From sequence record ON286975: a DNA stretch of 64,000 nucleotides, one strand, 5' to 3'. A model generated the notes under the pieces. The model did no database searches and was not told where the DNA came from. It saw nothing but the letters and a program-made list of their open reading frames with translations. Made by a program: the position numbers and the translations under genes. The stretch is from Escherichia phage I29. Below, one piece after another: positions 20,499-42,222 of this stretch. Position 1 is the first letter of the stretch. The number at the start of each line of letters is the position of its first letter.

Positions 20499-20634
20499 AA
20501 CTGTTTATACTGTTCTTAAAGAGATTGCGTTCTACGCAGATCTTAGTCAGGCACCTTTATGGGAAAAGAACATGTATTTAAAATGGTGCGTTAATTTAGG
20601 GAGACCTTCCAGTGTTTCAAGCCATGTTTATTGA
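20482..20634 (+). CDS. hypothetical protein
   Basis: ATG 20482 (METAPKTVY) after AAGGAGGG; overlaps upstream 3' end. Confidence 0.3.
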   Translation: METAPKTVYTVLKEIAFYADLSQAPLWEKNMYLKWCVNLGRPSSVSSHVY

Positions 20635-20717
20635 GATGCTATCTGGGGTATTGTTACTGGTAGCCATCTTAGGTGGTGCAGTTCTGATGTATAACTATCT
20701 TGAAAAAGGAGACAGTA

Positions 20718-20903
20718 ATGGCAAAAAATAAATCTTTAGAGCAGGCTGAAAACCTTCTCCACGAGCTGGTAAAGGAGTGGAAAGTCGAATACTCAGATTT
20801 TAATGCACGAGAGGGTGAAGATTATTGGCCTACGGAGCGCTCCGAGGGTGAATGGTATCAAGATTTTATAGAGTGGTTATATCAGACGTGCGATGAGGGG
20901 TGA
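20718..20903 (+). CDS. hypothetical protein
   Basis: ATG 20718 after AAAGGAG. Confidence 0.45.
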   Translation: MAKNKSLEQAENLLHELVKEWKVEYSDFNAREGEDYWPTERSEGEWYQDFIEWLYQTCDEG

Positions 20904-20905
20904 CG

Positions 20906-21370
20906 ATGTTTGTTAAATATGTAAAAACGTGCCTCAACAGCCTTGGCAGAGAGCATTGGTACACCTTGCTTGAAAAAGGAGAAATTTTAACAAAATCTGG
21001 AAAGATAACTTTGATACCTCTTGATAGTAAAGGTAAAGACCCGTCACGACTTGTTATAGATGATTACGTTACAGGTGTGACGTTCGAGGTCTCTGTGGAG
21101 AGGTTAATACGCAGAGCTGGCGGCCCTTATGACCGAAGAGAGTATGTTTTCGATTCCGTTACAGAGATGGGGGAGCATCCGTCTTTAATGTTCAGGATGG
21201 TAATCAGAGATATGAGGTCATCTATAGATAGGATCGTAAAGGACATTAAGGAACCTTTTAGAGTAAAAGTTAAGAAGTTTTTCGATTCTAAGATTAACAT
21301 ACTCGCCGTTGCACTAGGTGTAGTTCAACTTCTGTTAATTTTGCACTATTTTGAACTGTTGTTTAAGTAG
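20906..21370 (+). CDS. hypothetical protein with C-terminal transmembrane helix
   Basis: ATG 20906 after GAGGGG; C-terminal ILAVALGVVQLLLILHYF. Confidence 0.5.
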   Translation: MFVKYVKTCLNSLGREHWYTLLEKGEILTKSGKITLIPLDSKGKDPSRLVIDDYVTGVTFEVSVERLIRRAGGPYDRREYVFDSVTEMGEHPSLMFRMVIRDMRSSIDRIVKDIKEPFRVKVKKFFDSKINILAVALGVVQLLLILHYFELLFK

Positions 21371-21430
21371 TGTGCAACAAGGCACAAAGGATGTGCCATA
21401 ATTAAACAAATTAAGAAAGAGGTAGAGAGA

Positions 21431-21778
21431 ATGTCAAAGATTAAATCGATATTAATGTGGGTAGCTGTTGTGGCTTTTGTAGGATACTGGACTTGGGAAA
21501 CTGAATTAAAAGATATCGGATATACCAGTCTTGAGAGCAAGGCGTGCATTGGCATAACCGATGCATTCAGGCAAAATGCTATGGATCACGAATGTGTCGA
21601 TGCAGATATAGATGAGAAACTGTCTAAGGACAAGGATTTTTACCATGGTCATGCCTTGCTTGATAGTGGTGACACTGTAGAATTCTGGTCGTGGTTCCGT
21701 GAAGATGGAACAATAAAGACAGCAGTAAAGATTTCCAACAAAGAGTTAATGCTGTTGCAGCAGAAGGAGGTGCAATGA
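21431..21778 (+). CDS. membrane-anchored hypothetical protein
   Basis: N-terminal hydrophobic helix; GAGG RBS. Confidence 0.5.
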   Translation: MSKIKSILMWVAVVAFVGYWTWETELKDIGYTSLESKACIGITDAFRQNAMDHECVDADIDEKLSKDKDFYHGHALLDSGDTVEFWSWFREDGTIKTAVKISNKELMLLQQKEVQ

Positions 21779-22062
21779 TTTGGATATCCTACACTGATGG
21801 CACCATGCTGTATACTGCAGGTACCAGATATGAAGTTCAGGAGAACGATAAAAAATTTATCGTAAAAACATTTGACAAGGACGACAACCTTTTGCTAGAA
21901 TTGACTTACAAAGTTGGAGAGGTATCCAATATCCAGTTGGATTGTGGTCATAAAGATAATCCACTCAAAAAACCTGGAGTAGGTAAGGCTTCAGAAGAAC
22001 GTCTGTCTCGTATTGCAGAAAGCGTTTCTCCCCAAAAATCTAAGAAGAGGACTAGAAAATGA
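21775..22062 (+). CDS. hypothetical protein
   Basis: ATGA coupling with upstream ORF. Confidence 0.5.
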   Translation: MIWISYTDGTMLYTAGTRYEVQENDKKFIVKTFDKDDNLLLELTYKVGEVSNIQLDCGHKDNPLKKPGVGKASEERLSRIAESVSPQKSKKRTRK

Positions 22063-22253
22063 AAAACTTACGTTTTAACACTTATTACTACAACACATTG
22101 AATGATTTGTATTATATTGTTCGAAGTAAAAGTCCTGAAACAGTCCTATTCTGCCGCGAACCTTTCAAAGGGGAGGAAGTAGAGTCTGAGATGAATGTTA
22201 GCCAGATCACCTCTTTGTTGCTCTCAGGCGCAATGGAAGAAGCAATATTCTAA
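22059..22253 (+). CDS. hypothetical protein
   Basis: ATGA coupling; 64 aa. Confidence 0.45.
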   Translation: MKNLRFNTYYYNTLNDLYYIVRSKSPETVLFCREPFKGEEVESEMNVSQITSLLLSGAMEEAIF

Positions 22254-22271
22254 ACCAGGCGGGAGGGTTTT

Positions 22272-22457
22272 ATGAAGCACTATTGCCTGTCTGGTAGAAT
22301 GGGTGCAGATTGTGATTGGGTTTTCTTAAAACTTGTCAGCATTCGAGAGTTCATCCCAGAGGAAGAGCAAGAAAGCGAGCTGATGTCATGGATCAACCAT
22401 TACGGTAACACTTTTCGGCATGTTAAGGTGGAAGAGTTGCCAAGCGAGGCTGATTGA
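22272..22457 (+). CDS. hypothetical protein
   Basis: 61-aa ORF with GGAGGG RBS. Confidence 0.45.
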   Translation: MKHYCLSGRMGADCDWVFLKLVSIREFIPEEEQESELMSWINHYGNTFRHVKVEELPSEAD

Positions 22458-22459
22458 CT

Positions 22460-22549
22460 ATGATTGCATCAATATTAACGTTTATGGGTGGCGTGGCATT
22501 CGGATTCATTGTTTGCCTGTTTATAGTGATTATGTCTATGCGAGGCTGA
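22460..22549 (+). CDS. small hydrophobic peptide, 29 aa
   Basis: MIASILTFMGGVAFGFIVCLFIVIMSMRG; fills the gap between flanking genes. Confidence 0.35.
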   Translation: MIASILTFMGGVAFGFIVCLFIVIMSMRG

Positions 22550-22552
22550 ATT

Positions 22553-22849
22553 ATGAAACTTTTTGAGTGGTTTAAAAAGTTTAAATATAAAGCTGTAGCC
22601 ATCGTGCCGTGGTCCATTCAGTGGGTTGATGAAGGTGGTCTACCAATACCTGGTGACAAAGATACTGGGTACTGGATTATGATGGAGAACGGGTTTGGAA
22701 AGCGAAAGTATACGTGCACAAACTCTACTCGATCTGCACTTAATAGAGTGCCTGGTTACAAACTTATGGTTGTGTGGAAAATGTCAGGTGTGCCTCCAGC
22801 TAATGCTCAATTTCTTACTGACAATCCGACCACGGTGGAGGGAGATTGA
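22553..22849 (+). CDS. hypothetical protein
   Basis: 98 aa on cluster strand. Confidence 0.5.
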   Translation: MKLFEWFKKFKYKAVAIVPWSIQWVDEGGLPIPGDKDTGYWIMMENGFGKRKYTCTNSTRSALNRVPGYKLMVVWKMSGVPPANAQFLTDNPTTVEGD

Positions 22850-22851
22850 TA

Positions 22852-23133
22852 ATGAAAAAGATTAACAGTGGTGAAGTTGAGTTTAAACTTGTCGGGAAAG
22901 GCACTTACTGGGAAGTTCGTCAAAAGGTATATTTGTTCGGTCTTATTCCCTATTGGTCTAAATTCTACTGGGGAGCTAACGAGTGGGGAAGATACGCCAC
23001 CAAATCAATGGCACTTATTGGTATAGCAGAGTACATTGCAGCCAGAGATAGGGTTGGAGACACTTATTACTATACTGCGGACGATATTCGTAACAGTGTT
23101 TACGTCCCACAACCACCTGATGGAGACCGTTGA
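22852..23133 (+). CDS. hypothetical protein
   Basis: ATG 22852 after GGAGGGAG. Confidence 0.5.
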   Translation: MKKINSGEVEFKLVGKGTYWEVRQKVYLFGLIPYWSKFYWGANEWGRYATKSMALIGIAEYIAARDRVGDTYYYTADDIRNSVYVPQPPDGDR

Positions 23134-23357
23134 TGAAAGTTAAAGTTTTAGATTCAAGCTTCTATATTGGTCAGGAGCCTTTAGTAGGGAAATTGTTTAC
23201 TGCTGTCCCTAACGAAGATTACCCTGACCTTTTAAAAATAAAAGGGGCAGATCTTATTGCCGCTGGTGCATCTCAGGAATGCTTTGACAGTCAGTGGACC
23301 TACAACTTTGCCCTAGGTGAGGATGTAGAGGTAGTGGAGGACGATCATGAAGGTTAA
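23133..23357 (+). CDS. small acidic protein, MKVK-family paralogue
   Basis: MKVKVLDS... KIKGADLIAAGA... DVEVVEDD; coupled to upstream stop. Confidence 0.5.
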   Translation: MKVKVLDSSFYIGQEPLVGKLFTAVPNEDYPDLLKIKGADLIAAGASQECFDSQWTYNFALGEDVEVVEDDHEG

Positions 23358-23601
23358 AATTCTTGATTCTAACGTCTACTTGGGACAATCCTTCCTGAAT
23401 GGAAAGGTCGTTCCTGCGGTATACTTTGAAGGGTTGCCGTGGGATGATCCTGTGCGGCAACATCACAGTTATGTAGGCCACAACGTGGTGTTTATCTTGG
23501 GATCAGACCTGATCACCGCTGGTGCACCTGAATATTATTTCGGGGAAGAGTCCTACTATGCCTTTGGGGTAGGGTCAGATGCAGATATTGTAGAGCTGTG
23601 A
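23347..23601 (+). CDS. small acidic protein, MKVK-family paralogue
   Basis: MKVKILDSNVYLGQ... ILGSDLITAGA... DADIVEL. Confidence 0.5.
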   Translation: MKVKILDSNVYLGQSFLNGKVVPAVYFEGLPWDDPVRQHHSYVGHNVVFILGSDLITAGAPEYYFGEESYYAFGVGSDADIVEL

Positions 23602-23613
23602 TGGGTAACCGTT

Positions 23614-24012
23614 GTGAAAAATAAACTGTTTAAAGTTACAATGAAAATTCGCGGGGCTTGGAGCGTAAAGCAAGGGCGTATTCCAGAATTTGAGAAGGAC
23701 TTCTACGTAGTCTCCACCTCGGAGGAGGCTGCATGCTGGCAGGCTGGCTATGCCTATGCAAGAACCTGGTACGAAGGATACCAGACTGGGGGCTATGACG
23801 GAGAAATTATCAGCAAGGGTGTAGAAGAAATTAATGTGTTGACAAGTGAAAAAGTTTTTGTTATAGTGCATCCAGATTCCAGAGTGAAGCATTACTGGAA
23901 TTCCAGAACAAAAACTTGGACACCGTTTGCAGATTCTGCTACACCACTTTTAAACCAGAAAGCTCTTGATTCTGTCCCAAGCTATGGGGTTGTTGAAGAA
24001 AAGCTAAACTGA
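23614..24012 (+). CDS. hypothetical protein (paralogue of 25819-26214)
   Basis: VIVHPDSRVKHYWNSRTKTWTPF resembles FVMRHPHSNIAYYWDVLNNEWTP. Confidence 0.45.
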   Translation: MKNKLFKVTMKIRGAWSVKQGRIPEFEKDFYVVSTSEEAACWQAGYAYARTWYEGYQTGGYDGEIISKGVEEINVLTSEKVFVIVHPDSRVKHYWNSRTKTWTPFADSATPLLNQKALDSVPSYGVVEEKLN

Positions 24013-24029
24013 AACAGTGAGGTGCCACT

Positions 24030-24320
24030 ATGATGGATTTAGTTCTGAATATTGATAACGCAGGAGAGGTTAAAGACGATGGTGTAACAAGCATGGACCA
24101 GCCATGCCCTGCCAAGATTGACTCAAAATGGACCTATAAGTTTGACGGAGAGATCTTTGCAAATGATGAAAAGGTTGTAGATGCTGCAGCCATTTTGAAC
24201 GCTCTAGGGTACGACCCTGTAAATTCTTTGATCAAGGATCCTGTTGAGTTTGCAGAGTATGTTCGAAAAATGGCAGATCTTGCTGTAGATATTTTAAATA
24301 CTATCGACAACAATCTGTAA
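24030..24320 (+). CDS. acidic hypothetical protein
   Basis: GAGGTG RBS; 96 aa. Confidence 0.5.
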   Translation: MMDLVLNIDNAGEVKDDGVTSMDQPCPAKIDSKWTYKFDGEIFANDEKVVDAAAILNALGYDPVNSLIKDPVEFAEYVRKMADLAVDILNTIDNNL

Positions 24321-24326
24321 AAACTG

Positions 24327-24355
24327 TTGACACAACGCTTCAGATTTAGTATCAT
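24327..24355 (+). promoter_or_regulatory. sigma70-type promoter upstream of HPF homologue
   Basis: TTGACA-17-TATCAT. Confidence 0.5.
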
Positions 24356-24402
24356 TGTTTTCAAAGAGGGTTTGGTTCCCTCTTCTTTAAAAGGAACACG
24401 TT

Positions 24403-24720: not shown

Positions 24721-24729
24721 GGTGCTACA

Positions 24730-24831
24730 ATGGGTGTGATTAAGAAATTAGTCCCAAATGTAGAGATTGCATGCTTTGAAATTATGTTTGCAATCGCAGT
24801 TGTAGTTAATGTGTTAGGTTACGGCTATTAA
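24730..24831 (+). CDS. small hydrophobic peptide, 33 aa
   Basis: MGVIKKLVPNVEIACFEIMFAIAVVVNVLGYGY; GAGGTG RBS just after HPF stop. Confidence 0.4.
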   Translation: MGVIKKLVPNVEIACFEIMFAIAVVVNVLGYGY

Positions 24832-24857
24832 TATCAAATAATTGAGGAGACCTCTAA

Positions 24858-27231: not shown

Positions 27232-27524
27232 TGAAAGATCTGGTTAAGATTAAGATTAAGATTAAAGATACCAACGGCGAACTCAGCCATTTTGGAATTA
27301 ATGATGGTGACGAGCTGATCGCACACCTTCCTACCAAGGAAGTTGTAAGCAAGGCGGTTGCCGGAGAAGAAGATGCAATGCAGGCTGCAGGTGTGGATGA
27401 AAACTATGTAGCCATGTGCATGTGCCGAGATCAGGTTGTTCTGTATAAAGCGTATCGACCAAACGGAGCCACGGAGTGGCTTGTATTCCGACCAGAAGGA
27501 TATGAAATCTTAGAGGCACTATGA
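27231..27524 (+). CDS. small acidic protein
   Basis: ATGA coupling; MKDLVKIKIKIKD...; C-terminal YEILEAL. Confidence 0.5.
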   Translation: MKDLVKIKIKIKDTNGELSHFGINDGDELIAHLPTKEVVSKAVAGEEDAMQAAGVDENYVAMCMCRDQVVLYKAYRPNGATEWLVFRPEGYEILEAL

Positions 27525-27613
27525 TAAATCTTGCCAAGGTTGCAACGGCACTATTAATTATTTGCTGGTCAGTAACCTTAACACTGTGTCTTGTATTTCA
27601 GTAAGGTGCTTGT

Positions 27614-27877: not shown

Positions 27878-28032
27878 CAGTATAGTGACTAACAAGAGGT
27901 GAGGGGTGACTGATTTTACTGAAGCTTTAATGATGGCCTTGTCTGTTTTAGCGCTATCGGTGTGTTTTGGGGCGTTATTCACATCTCTGGTTAAAGTTTT
28001 ACATACAGTATTATTACCCAAGGAGCGCAGTA

Positions 28033-28284
28033 ATGACGAAGATTGACTTGAATGCTGGTGATCATGTTGTTGTCAAATGCATTGGAGATTATCTTGGATT
28101 CACAATCGGCAATACTTATGAGGCGGTAGTGGCGAAGGTTTATCATGATAAAGTCCTCAGTCTTGTATTTGACTGCGATGATGATGGGGATGACCGATAC
28201 GTCTGTGAGGTGCTGGCACGAGACGATAGTGAAGACCAGAAATTCCTGGTTATTGAACTGAACGGTATTTTTGTAGAACGTTAA
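28033..28284 (+). CDS. hypothetical protein
   Basis: ATG 28033 after AAGGAG; acidic. Confidence 0.45.
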   Translation: MTKIDLNAGDHVVVKCIGDYLGFTIGNTYEAVVAKVYHDKVLSLVFDCDDDGDDRYVCEVLARDDSEDQKFLVIELNGIFVER

Positions 28285-29332: not shown

Positions 29333-29359
29333 AGGACGCTCTGTGGCGTCCTTTTCTTT
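29333..29359 (+). terminator. intrinsic terminator
   Basis: aggacgc-tctgtg-gcgtcct followed by T-run. Confidence 0.6.
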
Positions 29360-29521
29360 ATCTGGTGCACGATTGCATACCTTGGACAGATAATCTCATT
29401 ACAGAGCGTTTAAGAGCTTCCTACAAACAAATCTCTCTTTCGAGCGTAGCGAGAACGCACGTCCGTTTTGACCCAAATCACCATACGCTCGGATTTTAAC
29501 CAAACCCTCGCGGCGTTTCTG

Positions 29522-29582: not shown

Positions 29583-29672
29583 ATGAGAACATTGTCCGAA
29601 GTTTTAGTGGTGATCCTGATGATCATTACGTCCATAGCGGCTGTTGCCGGAATACTCACGGGTGGAACATGA
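29583..29672 (+). CDS. small hydrophobic peptide, 29 aa
   Basis: MRTLSEVLVVILMIITSIAAVAGILTGGT; GGAG RBS; stop overlaps next ATG. Confidence 0.4.
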   Translation: MRTLSEVLVVILMIITSIAAVAGILTGGT

Positions 29673-29881
29673 TAAACACACATGCATCTGAAGAGACATC
29701 CAAAGGAGTGACTATATGTCCCTTGGCTGAGCCAGTGAAAGAGGAAAACTTAGATTCTGAAGATTCTCCATCTTCGCTCCAGGTAGATCCTGAGGCTGAT
29801 GACCTAACGTGGGAAGACATCGTAGACATCTGGTTCTCCATTATGCCTGAGCACGAAGAGTTCAGAGGTGGTAGACTATGA
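29669..29881 (+). CDS. acidic hypothetical protein
   Basis: 70 aa; coupled to upstream peptide ORF. Confidence 0.45.
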   Translation: MINTHASEETSKGVTICPLAEPVKEENLDSEDSPSSLQVDPEADDLTWEDIVDIWFSIMPEHEEFRGGRL

Positions 29882-30850: not shown

Positions 30851-31990
30851 CATACTCTACCTGTCTGATCAATTTCCCCAACCACATCCTCCATATTTTC
30901 CCTGTCTGTACTACCCCTGCCCCGCCGTGAGTCCCGTCATATCTGGCTTTCCAGCAAATATCACACCCACAAATATCATTGCCTGAAGAGGGTTTCATCT
31001 CATAATATATGCCTTACCTGAAGAGCGCTTCATACACCACGTAATTTTTTTTTTAATTGACCCCCTCCCCGCCGCTGGAGAGGTTGGCTTTTCCCACACA
31101 GACCTGAAGAGTCAGCCAGAAATATCTGAACAGGCCCAATTCTACCACGATTTTGACCTGACCTACAGGAGTGCTGCCAGGCGGACGAAATGGGAATCAT
31201 TCTCATTCTTATAACAATTCTCAAATATCGAGGCAGTGAGGCAAATTAATAGGTGAGGCCGTTCACACAATGGCACAACATTTGCAACCTATCTTGTGGG
31301 AGTGAATGAGAATACCTATCATTGTGAGAATAGTTATCATTACGGGCAATTTAACATAATACCCATTATGCGCACCGCTGGTGATACATACAGGGAAAAT
31401 ATGGAGGATGTGGTTGGGGAAATTGATCAGACAGGTAGAGTATGCATACTCTACCTGTCTGATCAATTTCCCCAACCACATCCTCCATATTTTCCCTGTC
31501 TGTACTACCCCTGCCCCGCCGTGAGTCCCGTCATATCTGGCTTTCCAGCAAATATCACACCCACAAATATCATTGCCTGAAGAGGGTTTCATCTCATAAT
31601 ATATGCCTTACCTGAAGAGCGCTTCATACACCACGTAATTTTTTTTTTAATTGACCCCCTCCCCGCCGCTGGAGAGGTTGGCTTTTCCCACACAGACCTG
31701 AAGAGTCAGCCAGAAATATCTGAACAGGCCCAATTCTACCACGATTTTGACCTGACCTACAGGAGTGCTGCCAGGCGGACGAAATGGGAATCATTCTCAT
31801 TCTTATAACAATTCTCAAATATCGAGGCAGTGAGGCAAATTAATAGGTGAGGCCGTTCACACAATGGCACAACATTTGCAACCTATCTTGTGGGAGTGAA
31901 TGAGAATACCTATCATTGTGAGAATAGTTATCATTACGGGCAATTTAACATAATACCCATTATGCGCACCGCTGGTGATACATACAGGGA
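30851..31990. repeat. tandem direct repeat, 594-bp unit x 1.9 copies
   Basis: 30851-31444 is repeated at 31445-31990 with identical sequence where compared; unit contains three CCTGAAGAG motifs and a T10 run. Confidence 0.9.
31393..31496. repeat. perfect 104-bp palindrome at the tandem-repeat junction
   Basis: gggaaaatatggaggatgtggttggggaaattgatcagacaggtagagtatg is immediately followed by its exact reverse complement. Confidence 0.9.
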
Positions 31991-34216: not shown

Positions 34217-34489
34217 TTACTTACGGCGGCAGAATTCAAGCGTTTTTAATTGATAATCTTCCTCAGCCTGGAGTACAACCGCCTCGATCATTTCGTTGGC
34301 ATTGTTGAAGCCATATCCTTTAGCGAATTCATCCGCACCACCTTCGTGATCATGTTCTGCGTTCATCGCTTCCACAAAATGGAATTCAAGATTATTGAGG
34401 TAGGGGCTTGATGTTCCGTCCTCTTTTTCAATGAGATCCCAAATAGCATTAAAACGTGATTCGACTTCTTGGTTAATCCAACTTGACAC
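34217..34489 (-). CDS. acidic hypothetical protein
   Basis: GTG start after AGAGGAAAAC; 90 aa. Confidence 0.5.
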   Translation of the reverse strand: MSSWINQEVESRFNAIWDLIEKEDGTSSPYLNNLEFHFVEAMNAEHDHEGGADEFAKGYGFNNANEMIEAVVLQAEEDYQLKTLEFCRRK

Positions 34490-34703
34490 GGCGTTTTCCT
34501 CTCTTCTGGTTGTGTGGGCACTTTTGCCCTTTCAAGATAAATGTTACCTCACCCCATGGCAGATGTCAACGGTTTTTATAGTTCTTATATGACAGGCAGG
34601 CCCGGTGATTGTCTCCCCCTGTTCCCAAGTGCCGCCCGTTTAATAAGAATAGCAAAAGGGGCCGAACAAGTCAACCCCAAAATCAGTACCAAAACACTTT
34701 TAT

Positions 34704-35211: not shown

Positions 35212-35346
35212 CTAAAACAGTAAGTTAATATATAACACCAGATCGCTGACCACTAGAACAGCACGGATCAGCACATACCTAACCATAAGGGGAAAGAGCG
35301 CCAATATTGCCACCACAATCCCAAAGGTGATGATTATCTTTCTCAT
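35212..35346 (-). CDS. small hydrophobic peptide, 44 aa
   Basis: MRKIIITFGIVVAILALFPLMVRYVLIRAVLVVSDLVLYINLLF; ATG 2 nt after upstream stop. Confidence 0.35.
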   Translation of the reverse strand: MRKIIITFGIVVAILALFPLMVRYVLIRAVLVVSDLVLYINLLF

Positions 35347-35348
35347 GG

Positions 35349-35633
35349 TTAACGGTTTACGTAAGCTTTACCGTTTACGGTGATGGGCAAATCTTCCAGG
35401 TCTGGATCTTCCTTAAGGTCGCGAGCAAGCTCACCGCACCGGACACCCTCGAATCCGTAGTACTCTGTTGTGCCGTCCTTAAAAGTTTTAGCGGCAAGGC
35501 ATAAGCGATAAGTAACCCCGATTCGATTGACGGCATGAATATCCGTTAGATTAACCTCTTTTGCCAGCTCTTTAGCCATTACAGGCGCATTAAGTCCAAC
35601 AACCAGGGCAACCACTGCGATCATCTTTTTCAT
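35349..35633 (-). CDS. secreted (signal-peptide) small protein
   Basis: N-terminal MKKMIAVVALVVGLNAPVMA|KE signal peptide, no lipobox; 94 aa. Confidence 0.5.
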   Translation of the reverse strand: MKKMIAVVALVVGLNAPVMAKELAKEVNLTDIHAVNRIGVTYRLCLAAKTFKDGTTEYYGFEGVRCGELARDLKEDPDLEDLPITVNGKAYVNR

Positions 35634-35724
35634 TGTGTCTATCCTCTTTCTGCTACGTTTAAGGCGGCGGTAACCGTCTGTTTATGCCTTGTTGGTTAAT
35701 TTTCGGGTATCGGTATAAATTAAA

Positions 35725-35940
35725 CTATGCTGTACGCTCAACTATAACAACGGTTTGAGGGATCTCACCTTCCACCACTATCAAGGCTTTTTTCTGCGTG
35801 ATGGATATCTTTACCCGTTGCAGCGTGGCGGTGAAGTCTTTCATTTCGTCACGTGGTGTTTTAGTGCAATACCAGATCTCAGGCTTGCCGATCTGCAAGT
35901 TGCGTAAAAATTCTGTTTTGCCTGTTTTGTTAGTGATCAT
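35725..35940 (-). CDS. hypothetical protein
   Basis: 71 aa on cluster strand. Confidence 0.45.
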   Translation of the reverse strand: MITNKTGKTEFLRNLQIGKPEIWYCTKTPRDEMKDFTATLQRVKISITQKKALIVVEGEIPQTVVIVERTA

Positions 35941-35949
35941 TTGCCAACC

Positions 35950-36054
35950 TCACCCGATACCGTTGGAAGATAAGATCACATTAGCCATGGTTGCAATCAG
36001 GCCAATACCCAGGGCAATAACCAGGATCACCGCATCAATTAATTTCTGTTTCAT
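35950..36054 (-). CDS. small hydrophobic peptide, 34 aa
   Basis: MKQKLIDAVILVIALGIGLIATMANVILSSNGIG; AGAGGAAAAC RBS. Confidence 0.35.
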   Translation of the reverse strand: MKQKLIDAVILVIALGIGLIATMANVILSSNGIG

Positions 36055-36144
36055 TTTGTTTTCCTCTTCTTGTTCCAGGTGGCGGACCATTCCACCGCCT
36101 TATGTATTATGCTTTGTAAGATGGTTGTTTGTTTTCAAACTATT

Positions 36145-37524: not shown

Positions 37525-37541
37525 AAAATCACCTGCTGAAA

Positions 37542-37885: not shown

Positions 37886-37929
37886 TTTACTTTATTGATG
37901 GCCCTGGAGTCAAGGCCATCTAAAAATAA
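37886..37929 (-). repeat. 45-bp promoter/stem-loop repeat element, copy 1 (PeSL-like)
   Basis: On minus strand: TTATTTTTA-GATGGCC-TTGACTCCAG-GGCCATC-AATAAAGTAAAC; hairpin with TTGACT in the loop, TAAATT -10 about 18 bp downstream. Confidence 0.6.
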
Positions 37930-37932
37930 ATT

Positions 37933-38133
37933 TTACAGGCCTACAATCTCTTTAATTCGTTTTACTGCTGCCTCAGCGCCTTGAGGGTAAAAATTATGGT
38001 AACCAATCACGCGAGTGATACTAATCGCCGTTTGATGATCTTCATAATCACCTTTAAAGATTTCTTGACCGTCAATCAGCACGGCAATTTTTTCTTCTTT
38101 TTTGAAGTTAATAACGCGGATATTGTTGCTCAT
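37933..38133 (-). CDS. hypothetical protein
   Basis: 66 aa; AAAGGAGAAAC RBS. Confidence 0.45.
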   Translation of the reverse strand: MSNNIRVINFKKEEKIAVLIDGQEIFKGDYEDHQTAISITRVIGYHNFYPQGAEAAVKRIKEIVGL

Positions 38134-38221
38134 TTTGTTTCTCCTTTTGGAACTTTGTCTATGCGGTGGGGAGTGTCTCCCCGTTGATTGATATTATCCA
38201 TATTCTGGATCGGATTGCAAC

Positions 38222-38259
38222 ACTCAGGGAGAAAAAATTTGAAAAGTTAGGCCCCAGGG
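38222..38259 (-). terminator. intrinsic terminator (minus strand)
   Basis: ggcccc-agggatc-ggggcc hairpin followed on the minus strand by a T-rich tract. Confidence 0.5.
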
Positions 38260-38611
38260 ATCGGGGCCGTTATCAGTTACTTACAGCGATAAAATACATC
38301 CCTACGCCTAACAATATTTCAAGGGCGATGATCTCAAGCCATACCATAACACGGCGCGCCTTATCGGTGCGGGGCTTATCCTTGGGTGTCATCGTCTCCC
38401 CCTTTCCTCCTGTTAGCAGTGACGTGGTTTGCAATGGCCCCCAGGAGTATTATCACCACGCACATTACAAGAAAAATTATCTCTGTCGTTGTTCGATCCA
38501 TTGTTATAAAATTCCTTAAGATCAGGCCTGAAAATAAAGCTTTCGTTATTGAATCCATCCCGCCAGGCGGCTGGCTTCAAATCTTCACTAAAGGGGTTAA
38601 TTAACGTGGCA

Positions 38612-38983
38612 TTATTTAAACGGCTGGTCCACATATTTTCTATTCCTCTCAAATAGGCGATCCGCCTCAGTTAAACAAATCTCATGGGCGTGATCTCTGG
38701 TTTTAGCTTCATCGAAAACCTGTTGTGCAAGGCTGCAACGTAGGGAGACTGGAAGATCGCTGTAGTAGGCGTTGACAAATGTTTGAGCGTCGTACAGGTC
38801 TGAAAATACTTTACCCTTTCTATTATTCCCCTTGTCAACAATTGCAAGGATAACCAATACAATAGTTGCAACCACTCCCAGGAAAATAGATATAACAAAC
38901 CATAGAAAAGCGGATCTACCCATCTTGCCAGCGATCCAGGCGTTGAACAAGGCAACTACTACAGCCAAAATAATAAATTCCAT
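38612..38983 (-). CDS. membrane protein (two predicted TM helices)
   Basis: Start at MEFIILAVVVALFNAWIAG after AAAGAGG; second hydrophobic segment FLWFVISIFLGVVATIVLVILAIV. Confidence 0.5.
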   Translation of the reverse strand: MEFIILAVVVALFNAWIAGKMGRSAFLWFVISIFLGVVATIVLVILAIVDKGNNRKGKVFSDLYDAQTFVNAYYSDLPVSLRCSLAQQVFDEAKTRDHAHEICLTEADRLFERNRKYVDQPFK

Positions 38984-39008
38984 TCTATGTACCTCTTTTG
39001 CAGTTCTG

Positions 39009-39038
39009 TTTAACAATAAGGCGGCAAATATGCCGCCT
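39009..39038 (-). terminator. intrinsic terminator (minus strand)
   Basis: ggcggca-aata-tgccgcc hairpin followed on the minus strand by TTATTGTT. Confidence 0.55.
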
Positions 39039-39047
39039 GTTACCTGA

Positions 39048-39428
39048 TTAAAAATTATCGCCGTAAATCTTTCCGCTTTCTGCCCACACCACCACGCGGG
39101 GCATGTTATCCCATACGTCTTGTTTTAGATTTAACGCGTGCAATTCTTCTGTGGTGCTCATACCAGGCACGGGCTGATTGTATACTGCAAAACGACCACC
39201 TGCATAATCATAAGCTAAAGTCAAATCGCACTGAATCATTTTCTTGATCATGGCGTTAAGCATAGCGTTAGCCGCGTACTGGTCACGTTTTAAAGGCAAC
39301 TCTTTGATTAGTTTGCGATAGTTTTCGATATGGTCGCACACTGTTTCACGTGGAAGATCTTTCATATCTTCACGGAATGTAACCAGGTTAAACATAACGG
39401 TGTCAATAGCTTTAGTAGTGTTTTTCAT
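39048..39428 (-). CDS. hypothetical protein
   Basis: 126 aa; AGAGGAAAAC RBS. Confidence 0.5.
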   Translation of the reverse strand: MKNTTKAIDTVMFNLVTFREDMKDLPRETVCDHIENYRKLIKELPLKRDQYAANAMLNAMIKKMIQCDLTLAYDYAGGRFAVYNQPVPGMSTTEELHALNLKQDVWDNMPRVVVWAESGKIYGDNF

Positions 39429-39519
39429 GATGTTTTCCTCTTTGTTTTGTGTGGGGGCAAGTCATCTCGCCCCCTTAAGTTTTAATATAGCAGGTTTTTA
39501 GATTATTGCAACACTTTAT

Positions 39520-40143
39520 TTATGAAAAACTCATCTCTCCATATTCATCCACATCAAACCGCCAATCATTGGCTTCAATAAGGCCGATCAAGTTTTCGGT
39601 AGTAAACTGTTCAAGATAGGCCTCCTCCAGGTCTACATAAACCTTGCGGGATAGCTCCCGTACCGTCTCGGTGATCAGCTCTTCCAGATCTTCCACTTTA
39701 TTTTCTTGTTTTGCGGTCAGATCTAGCCAGGTAGTATCAATATATCCGCTTACAGTGTTTTCATGGCTGTAATGGCTGTACTTGTCGCGTTCAACACTGG
39801 CTGATAGTTCGCCATCGTGCATTGTGCCGAACAAGTGACGAATTGATCGGAACTTGGTCAGGGCCTTGACTTTACGCAAGAATTTCTCTAAGTCTACATT
39901 TTCAGCACTAATTGACGCGCCATCGCCTTGACACCAAAAGCCGGACCAATGTACATCGGTATCTTCAAGGCCGTACTCTGGAAAAACTTGTTCTTTATAA
40001 TATTCAATTACACTTTCTGCGAAAAAATCCTCTCCGCTGTGTTCTTCTCTTTCGCGGACCATTTCAATAGCTTTTTCTTTTTGTTCGTCGGTCAGCACGT
40101 CGAAAGATAAATTGCAACCTGTGGTAATGTTAACGGTAGTCAT
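39520..40143 (-). CDS. acidic hypothetical protein
   Basis: 207 aa; contains HWSGFWCQGDGASI; no confident family assignment. Confidence 0.5.
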   Translation of the reverse strand: MTTVNITTGCNLSFDVLTDEQKEKAIEMVREREEHSGEDFFAESVIEYYKEQVFPEYGLEDTDVHWSGFWCQGDGASISAENVDLEKFLRKVKALTKFRSIRHLFGTMHDGELSASVERDKYSHYSHENTVSGYIDTTWLDLTAKQENKVEDLEELITETVRELSRKVYVDLEEAYLEQFTTENLIGLIEANDWRFDVDEYGEMSFS

Positions 40144-40199
40144 GATATTTTCTCCTATTTTCTTTGTTAGTGGCGGGAAGTTTTCTCGCCTGTGTGTTT

Positions 40200-40228
40200 A
40201 AGTATACTTATTGAGGCTTACTTGTCAA
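40200..40228 (-). promoter_or_regulatory. sigma70-type promoter (minus strand)
   Basis: Minus strand TTGACA-17-ATACTT, followed by 5'-UTR hairpin ggcgagaaaacttcccgcc. Confidence 0.5.
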
Positions 40229-40478
40229 CACTATTTTTTAAATTATTGTGGCGTAAAATGTTTAGAATCTCTTCAACGTCATCAACACGGCGGCAATTTT
40301 TAAACGCTACCAATTGCCCCATGATTTTAATCACTGGGCGGCCTTGCCAGTGCCCCTGGAGAAAGCGCGCCTTGACTTTATCGGTGGAACTATCACGCCA
40401 CCAAATGGCCTTGTTGTTGCAGTAGTAAAAATTATTCAGGACAACATCAACTTTATCAAAATTTTTTAATTTACGCAT
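40218..40478 (-). CDS. hypothetical protein
   Basis: 86 aa; AAAGGAGTAAAC RBS. Confidence 0.45.
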   Translation of the reverse strand: MRKLKNFDKVDVVLNNFYYCNNKAIWWRDSSTDKVKARFLQGHWQGRPVIKIMGQLVAFKNCRRVDDVEEILNILRHNNLKNSVDK

Positions 40479-40510
40479 GGCGTTTACTCCTTTCTCTCTT
40501 TGATGTGGTT

Positions 40511-40538
40511 AGTATAGCTAACCTGTTTAAGATGTCAA
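40511..40538 (-). promoter_or_regulatory. sigma70-type promoter (minus strand)
   Basis: Minus strand TTGACA-16-TATACT upstream of gene 40218-40478. Confidence 0.55.
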
Positions 40539-40685
40539 GCTTTAAATAAAATCACTGTCAATGATATTTTTAACGCCATAAAACGGCCCTAAGCGATGTT
40601 TTCAGGTTAAAGGGGGGCGATTGCATAGGTGGGGCCTTTTTGGCGCTTACAGGGCCAACCAGGGGCGCTATTCGTAGGATAGAAA

Positions 40686-40711
40686 TAAAAAGCCCCGCAC
40701 AATGGCGGGGC
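40686..40711 (-). terminator. intrinsic terminator (minus strand)
   Basis: gccccgc-acaatg-gcggggc followed on the minus strand by TTTTTA. Confidence 0.6.
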
Positions 40712-40719
40712 GTTGGTTG

Positions 40720-40917
40720 TTATTTGTCTTTATGGCGGTATCGTTCTGCCTGTCGTTCACGTTCCAAAAGTAGGCCAGGCAATTTACGATCATAATGATT
40801 CCGCCAGATCTTCCCAAATCTTTTTGGCTTATTCAGTTTATTGTTGCGCTGGCGACGTTCCGGCAACTCTTCGGAATCATGAGGGCGCTTTACAATTTTT
40901 TCGAAATTAATTTTCAT
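40720..40917 (-). CDS. small basic protein
   Basis: Start MKINFEKIV after AAGGGGGG; Arg/Lys-rich. Confidence 0.45.
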   Translation of the reverse strand: MKINFEKIVKRPHDSEELPERRQRNNKLNKPKRFGKIWRNHYDRKLPGLLLERERQAERYRHKDK

Positions 40918-41278
40918 AACTTCCCCCCTTACTGATCTCAATATTTGCCTGAATCGCCCGGATACGCCGTTTTATAACCTCCTGATCCTTGCAATCATAT
41001 CCCCAAAAGTCTACGATTTTTGCGCCTCCAGCCTTTAGGCGGTATAGTGTTTCTTGCATCTTGTAGGCCGGGATCGGTCGCGGTGTTACCTGGTCGCCCT
41101 TCTCATTCTTGTACTTGATAATGTAGTCTTCATTGTCGTTGAATACCCAAAATGGGTATTCTGTGAGCGCGTTGCTCTCTTTTTCGTTTTTAGATTGGAT
41201 CTTGTTTACAATTAAAGCCGTAGCAATAGCGCCAATAATAAAACTTGCCCCACTGATCATGTTACTTTCTCCTTTCAT
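40907..41278 (-). CDS. membrane-anchored hypothetical protein
   Basis: N-terminal hydrophobic helix ISGASFIIGAIATALIV; 123 aa. Confidence 0.45.
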   Translation of the reverse strand: MKGESNMISGASFIIGAIATALIVNKIQSKNEKESNALTEYPFWVFNDNEDYIIKYKNEKGDQVTPRPIPAYKMQETLYRLKAGGAKIVDFWGYDCKDQEVIKRRIRAIQANIEISKGGSYEN

Positions 41279-41336
41279 TGTATTGATAAACTATCTTTAT
41301 AGATGGCCCTGCTACCAGGACCACCGAAAAAACAGT

Positions 41337-41582
41337 TTATTTGACGATACCGACAAAACAGATCCCGCCTTCCCCTATATAGGCAATATCGGTAATTTTA
41401 TAATTTGTCAAGATCCGCGTGTTCAGCTCATTAATAAAATCTGTCATCGCGTTGGTGTAGTTGTCTTCCGTGTCTAAGGCATAATCCCAGGTGTAAACCT
41501 TTTTACGTCCGAAGCCTTTTACCATGATACGGGCGCTTTTGGTGTTGGTAGGGGCATAATATTTGGTGATTAGTGCTGCCAT
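41337..41582 (-). CDS. hypothetical protein
   Basis: 81 aa; AGGAG RBS; downstream of 45-bp element copy 2. Confidence 0.45.
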   Translation of the reverse strand: MAALITKYYAPTNTKSARIMVKGFGRKKVYTWDYALDTEDNYTNAMTDFINELNTRILTNYKITDIAYIGEGGICFVGIVK

Positions 41583-41625
41583 GGTTTTAACTCCTATGCA
41601 TTAGTTCAGTGTTAACAGTATAAAG

Positions 41626-41669
41626 TTTACTTTATTGATGGCCCTGGAGTCAAGGCCATCTAAAAATAA
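41626..41669 (-). repeat. 45-bp promoter/stem-loop repeat element, copy 2
   Basis: Near-identical to 37886-37929; -10 TAAACT. Confidence 0.6.
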
Positions 41670-41671
41670 TC

Positions 41672-42022
41672 TTACTCGTTTTCTTCCAGCTCCGCAAGCT
41701 CTTCTTTTGCTTCTTCCAACTCTGTCTGTAATTCCTGGTATTCTTCATCGTCCTCAATATCCAGGCTGTCGATGTAGTCGCTAAATCCGCAGCGGTAAGC
41801 GATAGGATCTAGCTCTTTGAGGATACGCGACGGAAGAAAAGAAATGTTTCCGATCATAATTTCGCCGTAGATCTCGTCTAACCATTCATCATAGTTTTCG
41901 TCGTACTTGTCCTCGTCGATTTCAAAGTTATCGATCTTGTCTTCAAGTTCTGCAATCTGTTTTTTCAGGGCGGCGATCTGCAGGGCTTTTTCTTCGGCGG
42001 TCATAGTGATGGAAGTATTCAT
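41672..42022 (-). CDS. highly acidic coiled-coil protein
   Basis: 116 aa, about one-third Asp/Glu (EDKIDNFEIDEDKYDENYDEWLDEIY...EDDEEYQELQTELEEAKEE). Confidence 0.5.
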   Translation of the reverse strand: MNTSITMTAEEKALQIAALKKQIAELEDKIDNFEIDEDKYDENYDEWLDEIYGEIMIGNISFLPSRILKELDPIAYRCGFSDYIDSLDIEDDEEYQELQTELEEAKEELAELEENE

Positions 42023-42074
42023 AATGTTTTCTCCTTTTGGTGTTCTGGGAAGTTTTCCCGTTTATGTGCTTAGT

Positions 42075-42102
42075 ATTATACTGATTTAAGTTAGCTTGTC
42101 AA
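42075..42102 (-). promoter_or_regulatory. sigma70-type promoter (minus strand)
   Basis: Minus strand TTGACA-16-TATAAT, then 5'-UTR hairpin gggaaaacttccc. Confidence 0.55.
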
Positions 42103-42222
42103 TTAAAAGTTTAAGAAAAATTTTGCGAAATCATTGGCGCTACTCATCAACATTTGCGCCAGGATGTAACCAATGATGCAAACGATAATAGTTACCTTTG
42201 TGTGCTGGCGTGTAGTGCTCAT
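42103..42222 (-). CDS. small hydrophobic peptide, 39 aa
   Basis: MSTTRQHTKVTIIVCIIGYILAQMLMSSANDFAKFFLNF; GGAGG RBS; downstream of 45-bp element copy 3. Confidence 0.4.
   Translation of the reverse strand: MSTTRQHTKVTIIVCIIGYILAQMLMSSANDFAKFFLNF

What the first reader, a model, noticed from the sequence alone, without database searches (positions are those of the whole stretch)
20624..42222. Many unannotated tiny hydrophobic peptide ORFs wedged between early genes
At least six ORFs of 29-44 codons encode single-helix hydrophobic peptides with plausible ribosome-binding sites and tight coupling to neighbours (22460-22549, 24730-24831, 29583-29672, 35212-35346, 35950-36054, 42103-42222; weaker 20624-20731). 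All fall below typical ORF-calling cutoffs. Small membrane peptides in phages can act in superinfection exclusion or host membrane modulation.
Basis: seen in the sequence. Interest (0 to 1): 0.4.

Follow-up and report, generated by a model that had tools for sequence, protein, structure and literature searches.

The report
Known tiny membrane-peptide genes of rV5-like phage
The seven tiny hydrophobic ORFs are real, conserved genes for single-helix membrane peptides in an rV5-like E. coli phage, but their orthologues are already annotated in related phages (five listed as membrane proteins in 2013), and their function remains unknown.

Summary
The window is an rV5-like Vequintavirus (~95% identical to rV5, Murica, rV5_ev158). 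All seven ORFs exist as described. Each has a 19-residue stretch with Kyte-Doolittle mean of at least 2.0, and most have a Shine-Dalgarno site and abut or overlap their neighbours. They are far above chance: 10 such ATG-ORFs in 19-44 kb against 0.6 +/- 0.8 in simulations. Reading frames and lengths are kept in 9-15 relatives, and pooled substitutions show purifying selection (omega-like 0.34, p ~ 1e-17). C24730 is the weakest case, with a nonsense codon in phage Mangalyan.

"Unannotated" is wrong. Six match full-length PHROG families, and five are listed as "membrane protein, 1 TMD" in the 2013 rV5 paper. D is annotated in Murica and B in the BASEL phages.

Three more were missed. I (27906-28046) and J (38273-38392, minus strand) are already annotated. 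H (27521-27604, 27 aa) is conserved in 117 records and annotated in none of 40 sampled.

B22460 is a 96-nt presence/absence cassette bounded by GCGAGGCTGA repeats. It is shared at 77-89% nucleotide identity with mEpimmI-type E. coli prophages, where it heads an array of about 10 tiny membrane-peptide ORFs.

Function is untested. They are most likely accessory inner-membrane micropeptides that modulate envelope proteins.

The parts
20612..20731 (+). A: 39-aa peptide from the GTG at 20612, or 35 aa from the ATG at 20624. One TM helix, predicted N-out/C-in with a basic C-tail. Orthologue of rV5 ORF131/gp126.
   Evidence: Matches phrog_15251 at E=1.5e-26. 18 synonymous against 5 non-synonymous variant codons, p=3e-8. 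rV5 Table S3 lists it as 'membrane protein, 1 TMD'.
22460..22549 (+). B: 29-aa TM peptide MIASILTFMGGVAFGFIVCLFIVIMSMRG. Forms a 96-nt presence/absence cassette.
   Evidence: Annotated only in BASEL phages and a few other records. No PHROG family. Homologues at 77-89% nucleotide identity in E. coli prophages. 12 synonymous against 12 non-synonymous, p=0.0055.
22444..22453 (+). Left copy of the direct repeat GCGAGGCTGA that bounds cassette B.
   Evidence: Phages that lack B (Murica, C9, A135, A147) keep a single copy of the repeat.
22540..22549 (+). Right copy of GCGAGGCTGA. It encodes the last codons and stop of B (M-R-G-stop) and supplies a GAGG Shine-Dalgarno motif for the next gene, which starts at 22553.
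   Evidence: The same junction, CGAGGCTGATTATG, recurs in the prophage array.
24730..24831 (+). C: 33-aa TM peptide, 9 nt downstream of the HPF/RaiA-like gene. Orthologue of rV5 ORF145/gp140. The weakest of the ten as evidence for a gene under constraint.
   Evidence: Matches phrog_15151 at E=3.7e-26. rV5 Table S3 lists 1 TMD. However, Mangalyan carries an internal stop and D# has ATG changed to ATA. 5 synonymous against 9 non-synonymous, p=0.19.
27521..27604 (+). ATGA overlap with the upstream stop. Its own stop, TAAGGTG, carries the SD for the next gene.
   Evidence: Conserved in 117 phage records, with no feature annotated under it in any of 40 sampled. The exact sequence is absent from the 15-billion-protein collection. 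No PHROG family. 6 synonymous against 5 non-synonymous, p=0.04.
27906..28046 (+). GTG start here, ATG in most relatives. Orthologue of rV5 ORF156/gp151.
   Evidence: Matches phrog_16755 at E=3.6e-36. 17 synonymous against 10 non-synonymous, p=1e-5. rV5 Table S3 lists 1 TMD.
29583..29672 (+). D: 29-aa TM peptide with a 4-nt overlap with the next gene (29669-29881). Orthologue of Murica gp132.
   Evidence: Matches phrog_34195 at E=2.8e-21. 10 synonymous against 3 non-synonymous, p=4e-4.
35212..35346 (-). E: 44-aa hydrophobic peptide that starts 2 nt after the upstream stop and has no SD. Orthologue of rV5 ORF170/gp165.
   Evidence: Matches phrog_16005. The 44-aa ORF is intact at 54-86% aa identity in Vequintavirus and also in Justusliebigvirus and Phapecoctavirus. 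Absent from Murica, A135 and A147.
35950..36054 (-). F: 34-aa TM peptide. rV5 annotates a 46-aa form starting at 36090. Orthologue of rV5 ORF173/gp168.
   Evidence: Matches phrog_14631. Two allelic N-termini share a conserved ATMANMILSS(N/H)GIG C-terminus. Also present in Justusliebigvirus PD06 and KKE7M.
38273..38392 (-). Orthologue of rV5 ORF181/gp176.
   Evidence: Matches phrog_13629 at E=7e-32. 8 synonymous against 7 non-synonymous, p=0.009. rV5 Table S3 lists 1 TMD.
42103..42222 (-). G: 39-aa TM peptide with an AGGAGG SD 7 nt upstream. Stands alone between neighbours. Orthologue of rV5 ORF193/gp188.
   Evidence: Matches phrog_16391 at E=6.7e-32. 16 synonymous against 20 non-synonymous, p=7e-4. 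The exact sequence is named 'putative membrane protein' in phage I29.
42075..42102 (-). Perfect consensus sigma-70 promoter-like site (TTGACA-16-TATAAT, 12 of 12) that starts 1 nt after the stop of G. Corresponds to rV5 P192.

Best explanation
The seven ORFs, plus three more of the same kind at 27521, 27906 and 38273, are genuine protein-coding genes of an rV5-like Vequintavirus. Each encodes a 27-46-residue peptide that is essentially one transmembrane helix with short flanks. They sit in the two convergent blocks of small accessory genes that carry host-type sigma-70 promoters. Most are translated by coupling to the gene before or after them. After synthesis they would insert into the E. coli inner membrane. 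The positive-inside rule predicts N-in for C, D, F, G, H and J, and N-out/C-in for A, B and I. The most likely role (inferred, not shown) is as non-essential accessory micropeptides. Like bacterial small membrane proteins, they would bind and modulate larger host or phage membrane proteins such as transporters, sensors, proteases, entry or exclusion machinery, or lysis timing factors. Dispensability fits the patchy distribution: B and E are absent from some relatives, and C is pseudogenised in one. What is shown: the ORFs exist, their number is far above chance, their frame, length and hydrophobicity are conserved, substitutions show purifying selection, and B has moved horizontally as a cassette. 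What is inferred: translation, membrane insertion, orientation, targets and early timing. The confidence of 0.55 is for the whole statement. Taken separately, I put about 0.9 on their being real coding genes for membrane peptides and about 0.35 on the modulator mechanism specifically.
For: ORFs and sequence context. Hydrophobic segments in the window and in every homologue. Enrichment against Markov simulations (10 observed, 0.61 expected). Frame and length conservation in 9-15 relatives, including loci at 74-85% nucleotide identity. Codon-level excess of synonymous change, with pooled 127 synonymous against 136 non-synonymous variant codons over 248 and 787 sites (omega-like 0.34, p=9e-18). 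E is intact at 44 aa in two genera of another subfamily, and F likewise in Justusliebigvirus. Eight of the ten match full-length PHROG families. Independent TMHMM/Phobius calls of one TMD for seven of them appear in the rV5 paper. Dispensability. A perfect sigma-70 promoter abuts G, and sigma-70 promoters are annotated through the region in rV5.
Against: No expression, proteomic or ribosome-profiling data were found for any of them. The rV5 mass spectrometry covered virion proteins only. There is no homology to any protein of known function. Most relatives are only about 5% diverged, so each ORF rests on few substitutions. Selection is not individually significant for C (p=0.19), E (0.10) or F (0.09) in the crude codon count. 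C carries a nonsense codon in Mangalyan and a lost ATG in D#. The synonymous-excess test treats variant codons as independent and ignores phylogeny.
Confidence: 0.55

Rival explanations
1. They are superinfection-exclusion or entry-blocking factors. Made early, they would sit in the inner membrane and stop DNA injection by a second phage, as T4 Imm does.
For: They are small inner-membrane proteins in a presumably early accessory region, with a patchy, dispensable distribution. B is shared with temperate prophages, where exclusion genes are common. The mEpimmI paper shows exclusion by a prophage lipoprotein, although that is a different gene.
Against: No sequence similarity to any known exclusion protein. 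Ten different peptides is more than exclusion alone would seem to need. In the prophage, the B homologue lies in the late region between the lysis genes and the terminase, not with the lysogeny-expressed genes.
Confidence: 0.15
2. They are membrane-damaging peptides (toxin-like, holin-like or antiholin-like) that depolarise the host membrane for shut-off or help set lysis timing.
For: Their size and hydrophobicity resemble type I toxins of 19-50 aa and single-TM lysis regulators (my own knowledge). A lies two genes downstream of the 78-aa, 2-TMD protein that the rV5 paper proposed as the holin. The prophage array that starts with the B homologue follows the holin-lysozyme-Rz cassette, separated from it by a single ORF of about 180 aa.
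Against: No match to Hok, Ldr, TisB, Ibs or holin families in Pfam, NCBIfam or PHROGs. The rV5 endolysin gene is about 22 kb from A. Nothing points to an antisense RNA partner, and Rfam finds nothing in 19-44 kb.
Confidence: 0.15
3. The act of translating these ORFs is what matters, not the peptide. They would be short coupling ORFs that deliver ribosomes to the downstream gene or adjust its expression.
For: Spacing is very tight: ATGA overlaps at D and H, and gaps of 2-9 nt at B, C, E and F. The last codons of B and H carry the SD for the next gene. The B cassette can be present or absent without disturbing the downstream start.
Against: Amino-acid sequences are under purifying selection, and hydrophobicity is preserved even at 53-64% identity. 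A pure coupling ORF would not need this. G is not coupled to either neighbour. Chance would not make every such ORF a TM helix.
Confidence: 0.08
4. They are chance ORFs in T-rich spacers and are not expressed.
For: They are very short. C has a nonsense allele. Several other small ORFs annotated in rV5, such as gp149, gp175, gp182 and gp183, look doubtful.
Against: Ten are observed against 0.6 expected. Nine of the ten lie on the coding strand in gaps. Substitutions show a frame-specific excess of synonymous change, and the other frames are full of stops. E and F are conserved across subfamilies.
Confidence: 0.03

Closest known systems
rV5 ORF131, 145, 156, 170, 173, 181 and 193 (gp126, 140, 151, 165, 168, 176, 188), listed as 'membrane protein, 1 TMD' by Kropinski et al. 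2013 (PMC3606486, Table S3). Also Murica gp132 and the BASEL phage annotations such as bas50_0160.
   Same: These are direct orthologues with 86-100% aa identity, the same length and the same position. PHROG families 15251, 15151, 16755, 34195, 16005, 14631, 13629 and 16391 match full-length.
   Different: Nothing material for nine of the ten. H (27521-27604) has no annotated counterpart in any sampled record. None of these orthologues has a studied function.
Bacterial small inner-membrane proteins of 50 aa or fewer, such as YohP, AcrZ, MgtS, MgrB, CydX and KdpF (my own knowledge; YohP insertion is described in PMC7549839).
   Same: The architecture is the same: one TM helix with a few flanking residues and no signal peptide. 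These proteins usually act by binding a larger membrane protein, which is the mechanism proposed here.
   Different: No sequence relationship, with no NCBIfam or Pfam hit. They are encoded by a virulent phage. Partners are unknown.
Phage inner-membrane exclusion and lysis-timing proteins, such as T4 Imm, Sp, RI and RIII and P22 SieA (my own knowledge).
   Same: They are phage-encoded accessory membrane proteins, dispensable in the laboratory.
   Different: Those proteins are larger (about 80-100 aa or more) and unrelated in sequence. No exclusion or lysis phenotype has been tested for the peptides here.
Type I toxins, such as TisB (29 aa), Ldr (35 aa), Ibs (19 aa) and Hok (50 aa) (my own knowledge).
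   Same: Similar size and a single hydrophobic helix.
   Different: No family match. No antisense RNA was found. They sit in polycistronic, translationally coupled contexts rather than in toxin/antitoxin loci.
The array of tiny hydrophobic ORFs in mEpimmI-group temperate coliphages and prophages (mEp021, mEp010, mEp013, MagusPhagus; E. coli PAR and M1/5).
   Same: Its first unit is a homologue of B (29 aa, 79-86% aa identity and 77-89% nucleotide identity) with the same CGAGGCTGA junctions.
   Different: There the unit is one of about 10 consecutive 20-47-aa ORFs between the lysis cassette and the small terminase gene. In the rV5-like phage it is a single unit inserted between two unrelated small genes. 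The array is not discussed in the mEpimmI paper.

Membership tests
PHROG families 15251 (A), 15151 (C), 34195 (D), 16005 (E), 14631 (F), 16391 (G), 16755 (I) and 13629 (J), all of unknown function | Significant, full-length match to the family HMM | tested here: met
   E-values from 1.8e-22 to 3.6e-36. The matches cover residues 1 to the end of both the peptide and the profile. The exception is A, which matches profile positions 5-39 because the profile uses the GTG start.
PHROG families (B and H) | Significant match to any family HMM | tested here: not met
   The best hit for B is phrog_6302 at E=0.0038 over 17 residues, which is a hydrophobic-composition match. H has no hit at E<=1.
Orthologues of the rV5 'membrane protein, 1 TMD' genes (Kropinski 2013) | Same genomic position, same length and high identity to rV5 gp126, 140, 151, 165, 168, 176 and 188 | tested here: met
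   tblastn of the rV5 products against the window gives 86-100% identity at syntenic coordinates.
Holins and antiholins | At least one TMD with a charged C-terminus, placement in a lysis cassette next to the endolysin or spanin genes, and a match to a holin family | tested here: not met
   No holin family hit in Pfam, PHROGs or NCBIfam. The rV5 endolysin gp89 lies about 22 kb from A. A is near the 2-TMD protein that the rV5 authors proposed as the holin, but that assignment is itself only predicted. Lysis function could not be tested here.
Type I toxin families (Hok/Gef, Ldr, TisB, Ibs, ShoB, DinQ) | Match to the toxin family model, plus an overlapping or adjacent antisense RNA antitoxin | tested here: not met
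   No Pfam or NCBIfam match at E<=1. No Rfam family in 19-44 kb at gathering score.
Characterised bacterial small membrane regulators (AcrZ, MgtS, MgrB, CydX, KdpF, YohP and others) | Match to the NCBIfam or Pfam model of the family | tested here: not met
   No hits for any of the ten peptides, apart from one noise hit for E (E=0.18).
DUF3096 (PF11295), the name UniRef gives to one homologue of E | Pfam match at or above the gathering score | tested here: not met
   The Pfam scan of E at E<=1 lists only LPAM_1 and DUF4083, both below their cutoffs, and not DUF3096. The UniRef label is seen.
Single-pass inner-membrane proteins (generic class) | One hydrophobic segment of about 19 residues or more, with mean Kyte-Doolittle hydropathy above 1.6 | tested here: met
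   KD19 is 2.06-2.95 in the window and at least 2.01 in every homologue. TMHMM and Phobius predicted 1 TMD for seven of them in rV5. Actual membrane insertion cannot be tested with these tools.

The most novel reading that the evidence does not exclude
B22460 may be a self-contained 96-nt 'micro-moron'. It is a 29-codon membrane-peptide gene whose last codons double as the SD for the next gene, bounded by 10-nt GCGAGGCTGA repeats. It has moved between virulent rV5-like myoviruses and temperate mEpimmI-group phages. In the temperate phages, related units form arrays of about 10 tiny TM-peptide genes between the lysis cassette and the terminase. Several array units start with M-[D/N]-x-[Y/I], which suggests they are paralogues. 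Neither the arrays nor most of their units appear to be described or annotated. On this reading, the ten peptides in the window belong to a wider mobile repertoire of plug-in membrane micropeptides, and the 27-aa ORF H is a conserved gene that no pipeline has ever called.
Probability: 0.4. Interest if true: 0.5.

Novelty: already known. Interest (0 to 1): 0.25.

Why it matters
As submitted, the finding adds little. Orthologues of all seven ORFs are already annotated in relatives of this phage. Five were predicted as single-TMD membrane proteins in the 2013 rV5 paper, and a sixth is labelled a putative membrane protein in phage I29. Three things have some value. First, there is now quantitative evidence that these micro-ORFs are under selection and are not annotation noise. 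This matters because about 10 of roughly 70 genes in this accessory region are single-helix membrane peptides of unknown function, in a phage genus widely used for biocontrol and therapy. Second, one conserved 27-codon gene lies below gene-caller cutoffs and is missing from every sampled record. Third, one peptide gene behaves as a tiny mobile cassette linked to undescribed arrays of membrane micropeptide genes in common E. coli prophages. Natural phages with and without the cassette, such as rV5 and Murica, offer a ready-made experiment.

Tried and rejected
- IMG/VR scans anchored on the HPF-like and 207-aa neighbour genes gave only 2 and 8 loci, and only 4 of these were close relatives. I therefore took relatives from GenBank phage records instead.
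Run on E, it returned only Vequintavirus proteins. The wider distribution of E came from blastn instead.
- Pfam, NCBIfam and PHROG scans found no functional family for any peptide.
- Rfam at gathering score found nothing in 19-44 kb. No tRNAs were found in the window.
- A concatenated query of the other nine ORFs against 5,426 complete E. coli genomes found nothing, so only B has prophage relatives.
- I checked whether A's neighbours form a lysis cassette (holin plus spanins). The 115-aa and 95-aa neighbours show no lipobox or spanin-like features, so I dropped this idea.
- Fremin et al. 2022 on phage small genes is not held in the library. The 2024 review of phage small proteins does not discuss transmembrane peptides.
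- No transcriptome or Ribo-seq study of a Vequintavirus was found.
- I did not attempt structure prediction, because a single helix would be uninformative.

Full report
**What the window is.** The 20-43 kb stretch is 94-96% identical over 97-100% of its length to Escherichia phages rV5_ev158, inoa, Murica, A51.2, FFH2 and rV5 (Vequintavirus, Vequintavirinae). Genes run on the + strand up to about 30.2 kb and on the - strand from about 33.3 kb, and GC skew changes sign at the junction. The rV5 genome paper describes this part of the genome as "88 mainly small ORFs", with an ORF-free stretch between the two blocks (PMC3606486).

**Checking the observation.**
- All seven ORFs are present as described, on the stated strands, each with an ATG and a stop.
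- Each has a 19-residue window with mean Kyte-Doolittle hydropathy of 2.06-2.95.
- B, C, D, F and G have GAGG, GGAG, AGGA or AGGAGG 6-10 nt upstream of the ATG.
- For A, the GGGAG motif is spaced for the GTG at 20612 (39 aa, the start used in rV5 and Murica) rather than for the ATG at 20624.
- E has no SD but starts 2 nt after the upstream stop.

**Chance expectation.** In 19-44 kb there are 82 ATG-ORFs of 25-50 aa across the six frames. Ten of them have a 17-residue hydropathy of at least 2.3. Nine of those ten lie on the coding strand in gaps between larger genes. One hundred first-order Markov simulations of the same region gave 0.61 +/- 0.82 such ORFs, with a maximum of 4. Conversely, every gap-filling coding-strand ORF that has both an ATG and a 4-nt SD match is hydrophobic.

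**Are they genes?** I collected the orthologous regions from about 20 related loci: rV5, Murica, A51.2, FV3, Mangalyan, six unannotated "Campylobacter phage" records that are actually Vequintaviruses, IMG/VR contigs, and Justusliebigvirus and Phapecoctavirus phages.
- **Frame and length.** For all seven, the reading frame, length and hydrophobic segment are kept in 9-15 relatives.
- **Most divergent pairs.** dN/dS in the called frame is 0.01-0.36, whereas the two other frames carry 0-5.7 stops on average and show no synonymous excess.
- **Variant codons against the consensus.** An excess of synonymous change is seen for A (18 syn / 5 nonsyn, p=3e-8), D (10/3, p=4e-4), G (16/20, p=7e-4) and B (12/12, p=0.0055).
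- **Weaker cases.** The excess is weaker for E (19/34, p=0.10), F (16/31, p=0.09) and C (5/9, p=0.19).
- **Pooled over ten ORFs.** The omega-like ratio is 0.34 with p=9e-18.
- **E and F.** Distant conservation makes up for their weak counts. E is an intact 44-aa ORF, always 2-3 nt after the upstream stop, in Justusliebigvirus and Phapecoctavirus (Stephanstirmvirinae) at about 76-79% nucleotide identity, with 11-13 synonymous against 16-18 non-synonymous codon differences. F exists as two alleles that share the C-terminus ATMANMILSS(N/H)GIG and is also present in Justusliebigvirus.
- **C.** This is the least secure. Mangalyan has an in-frame stop at codon 12 and D# has ATA in place of ATG, so it is at least dispensable.
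- **Caveat.** These counts ignore phylogeny, and most relatives are only about 5% diverged.

**"Unannotated" is not correct.**
- Six of the seven match full-length PHROG families of unknown function at E from 1.8e-22 to 6.7e-32.
- In the rV5 RefSeq record, A is gp126, C is gp140, E is gp165, F is gp168 (with a longer start) and G is gp188.
- Table S3 of Kropinski et al. 2013 lists exactly these (ORF131, 145, 170, 173, 193) as "membrane protein, 1 TMD", based on TMHMM and Phobius.
- D is Murica gp132.
- A51.2 labels the C, F and G orthologues "putative membrane protein".
- B is unannotated in most records but is called in the BASEL phages (bas48-58), PMBT16, MiataMamis and NHEP1.
- All seven are at least 90 nt long. 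By my own knowledge that is Prodigal's minimum gene length, which would explain why they do get called.

- I (27906-28046, 46 aa) is rV5 ORF156 and matches phrog_16755.
- J (38273-38392, minus strand, 39 aa, N-terminus with six K/R) is rV5 ORF181 and matches phrog_13629. Both I and J are conserved and under selection.
- H (27521-27604, 27 aa, MINLAKVATALLIICWSVTLTLCLVFQ) overlaps the upstream stop by ATGA and ends in TAAGGTG, which supplies the SD for the next gene.
- H is intact in all 16 relatives examined, down to 87% nucleotide identity, and is present in 117 phage records. No feature is annotated under it in any of the 40 records sampled (about a quarter of those records carry no annotation at all).
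- H's exact sequence is absent from the 15-billion-protein collection, and it has no PHROG family. At 84 nt, it is the one conserved ORF here that really falls below calling cutoffs.

**B22460 is a small mobile cassette.**
- B is present in 90 phage records but cleanly absent from Murica, C9, A135, A147 and an IMG/VR relative.
- The difference is exactly 96 nt, bounded by the direct repeat GCGAGGCTGA at 22444-22453 and 22540-22549. These are the only two CGAGGCTGA sites in the 64-kb window.
- Phages without B keep a single copy of the repeat.
- The right copy encodes M-R-G-stop and provides GAGG for the next gene.
- The same stretch, and only that stretch (window 22442-22555), matches 10 of 5,426 complete E. 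coli chromosomes at 77-89% identity.
- In those genomes it lies in prophages of the mEpimmI group (mEp021, mEp010, mEp013, mEp044, MagusPhagus). It sits after the holin-lysozyme-Rz cassette and a 180-aa ORF, and before the small terminase gene.
- There the B homologue is intact (MIASILTFIGGVALGFIICLFLVIMSMRG and MIASILTFVGGMAAGFILCLFLVVMSMRD) and is the first of about 10 consecutive ORFs of 20-47 aa. Each is a single hydrophobic helix. Neighbouring units are joined by CGAGGCTGATTATG-type junctions or by overlaps.
- Eight orthologous units compared between two prophages that differ by about 15-23% are all intact, with 41 synonymous against 45 non-synonymous codon differences.
- Array DNA is found in 35 of 5,426 genomes. 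RefSeq leaves most of it unannotated, and the units shorter than 29 aa are absent from the protein collection.
- The mEpimmI paper does not mention transmembrane or small ORFs.
- None of the other nine peptides has any E. coli genome match.

**How they most likely work.**
- No function is known, and no characterised family matches.
- The anatomy (one TM helix with short flanks and no signal peptide) is that of bacterial small membrane proteins. Known examples insert into the inner membrane and act by binding larger membrane proteins (my own knowledge; YohP insertion is described in PMC7549839).
- The distribution of K and R residues predicts N-in for C, D, F, G, H and J, and N-out/C-in for A, B and I. 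E is ambiguous.
- The region carries sigma-70-type promoters, including a perfect TTGACA-16-TATAAT site that starts 1 nt after the stop of G. Early expression by host RNA polymerase is therefore a reasonable inference, but it has not been shown.
- The patchy presence of B and E and the pseudogenised C point to accessory roles rather than core ones.
- I therefore favour accessory inner-membrane micropeptides that modulate host or phage envelope proteins. Superinfection exclusion and membrane-damage or lysis-timing roles are narrower rivals.
- A pure translational-coupling role is unlikely because the peptide sequence and hydrophobicity are themselves conserved.
- Chance ORFs are effectively excluded.

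**Verdict.** The residual interest lies in three places: the unannotated 27-codon gene H, the 96-nt cassette B, and the prophage arrays of membrane micropeptide genes that B is linked to.

Noticed in passing
L022 6015-6966 (E. coli PAR, NZ_CP012379.1 about 1452604-1453555) and L023 6015-6754 (E. coli M1/5): mEpimmI-type prophages carry an array of about 10 consecutive ORFs of 20-47 aa. Each is a single hydrophobic helix, and several begin M-[D/N]-x-[Y/I]. The array lies between the lysis cassette (plus a 180-aa ORF) and the small terminase gene. Its first unit is the homologue of B22460. It is mostly unannotated in RefSeq and is not mentioned in the mEpimmI paper. Eight units compared between the two prophages are all intact, with 41 synonymous against 45 non-synonymous codon differences.
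   Followed up: partly
window 27521-27604 (+): A conserved 27-codon TM-peptide ORF with an ATGA overlap upstream and the SD for the next gene in its stop region.
   Followed up: yes
window 30851-31990: An exact 546-nt self-match at an offset of 594 nt (30851-31396 equals 31445-31990). This is a tandem duplication of about 1.9 copies inside the roughly 3-kb ORF-free region between the convergent gene blocks, which corresponds to the 'non-coding' box at rV5 104013-106618. Short 16-18-nt tandem repeats also lie at 31307, 31901 and 32304. No Rfam family matches. A role such as a replication origin or regulatory region was not examined.
   Followed up: partly
window 42075-42102 (-): A perfect consensus sigma-70 promoter (TTGACA, 16 nt, TATAAT; 12 of 12) that starts 1 nt after the stop codon of G42103.
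   Followed up: partly
window 24730-24831; L021 (Mangalyan) and L013 (D#): The 33-aa peptide gene downstream of the HPF/RaiA-like gene has an in-frame stop at codon 12 in phage Mangalyan and ATA in place of ATG in 'Campylobacter phage D#'. This suggests the gene is being lost in some lineages.
   Followed up: yes
window 35212-36054 (-); L024, L025, L031-L034: The block that includes E and F is shared at about 76-90% nucleotide identity with Justusliebigvirus and Phapecoctavirus (Stephanstirmvirinae). This indicates exchange of accessory small-gene modules between the two myovirus subfamilies. E is unannotated in several of those records (KKP_3264, ukendt, phiWec179).
   Followed up: partly
GenBank MG0656xx records (L013-L018): About two dozen 'UNVERIFIED: Campylobacter phage' records are about 95% identical to this E. 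coli Vequintavirus region and are classified under Vequintavirus. The host labels look wrong, or the phages grew on contaminating E. coli.
   Followed up: no
window 27411-27485, 29341-29496, 34366-34521, 38111-38233, 40573-40793: Several small ORFs annotated in rV5 (gp149, gp156, gp163, gp175, gp182, gp183) map here. They have non-ATG starts, overlap other genes, or show poor conservation of the product (68-89% identity). They look like doubtful calls, in contrast to the hydrophobic peptides.
   Followed up: no
window 20262-20498 (+): A 78-aa protein with two hydrophobic segments and a K/R-rich C-terminus, orthologous to the rV5 ORF129 'putative holin'. It lies two genes upstream of peptide A and far from the endolysin. 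The neighbouring 115-aa and 95-aa proteins show no spanin-like lipobox.
   Followed up: partly
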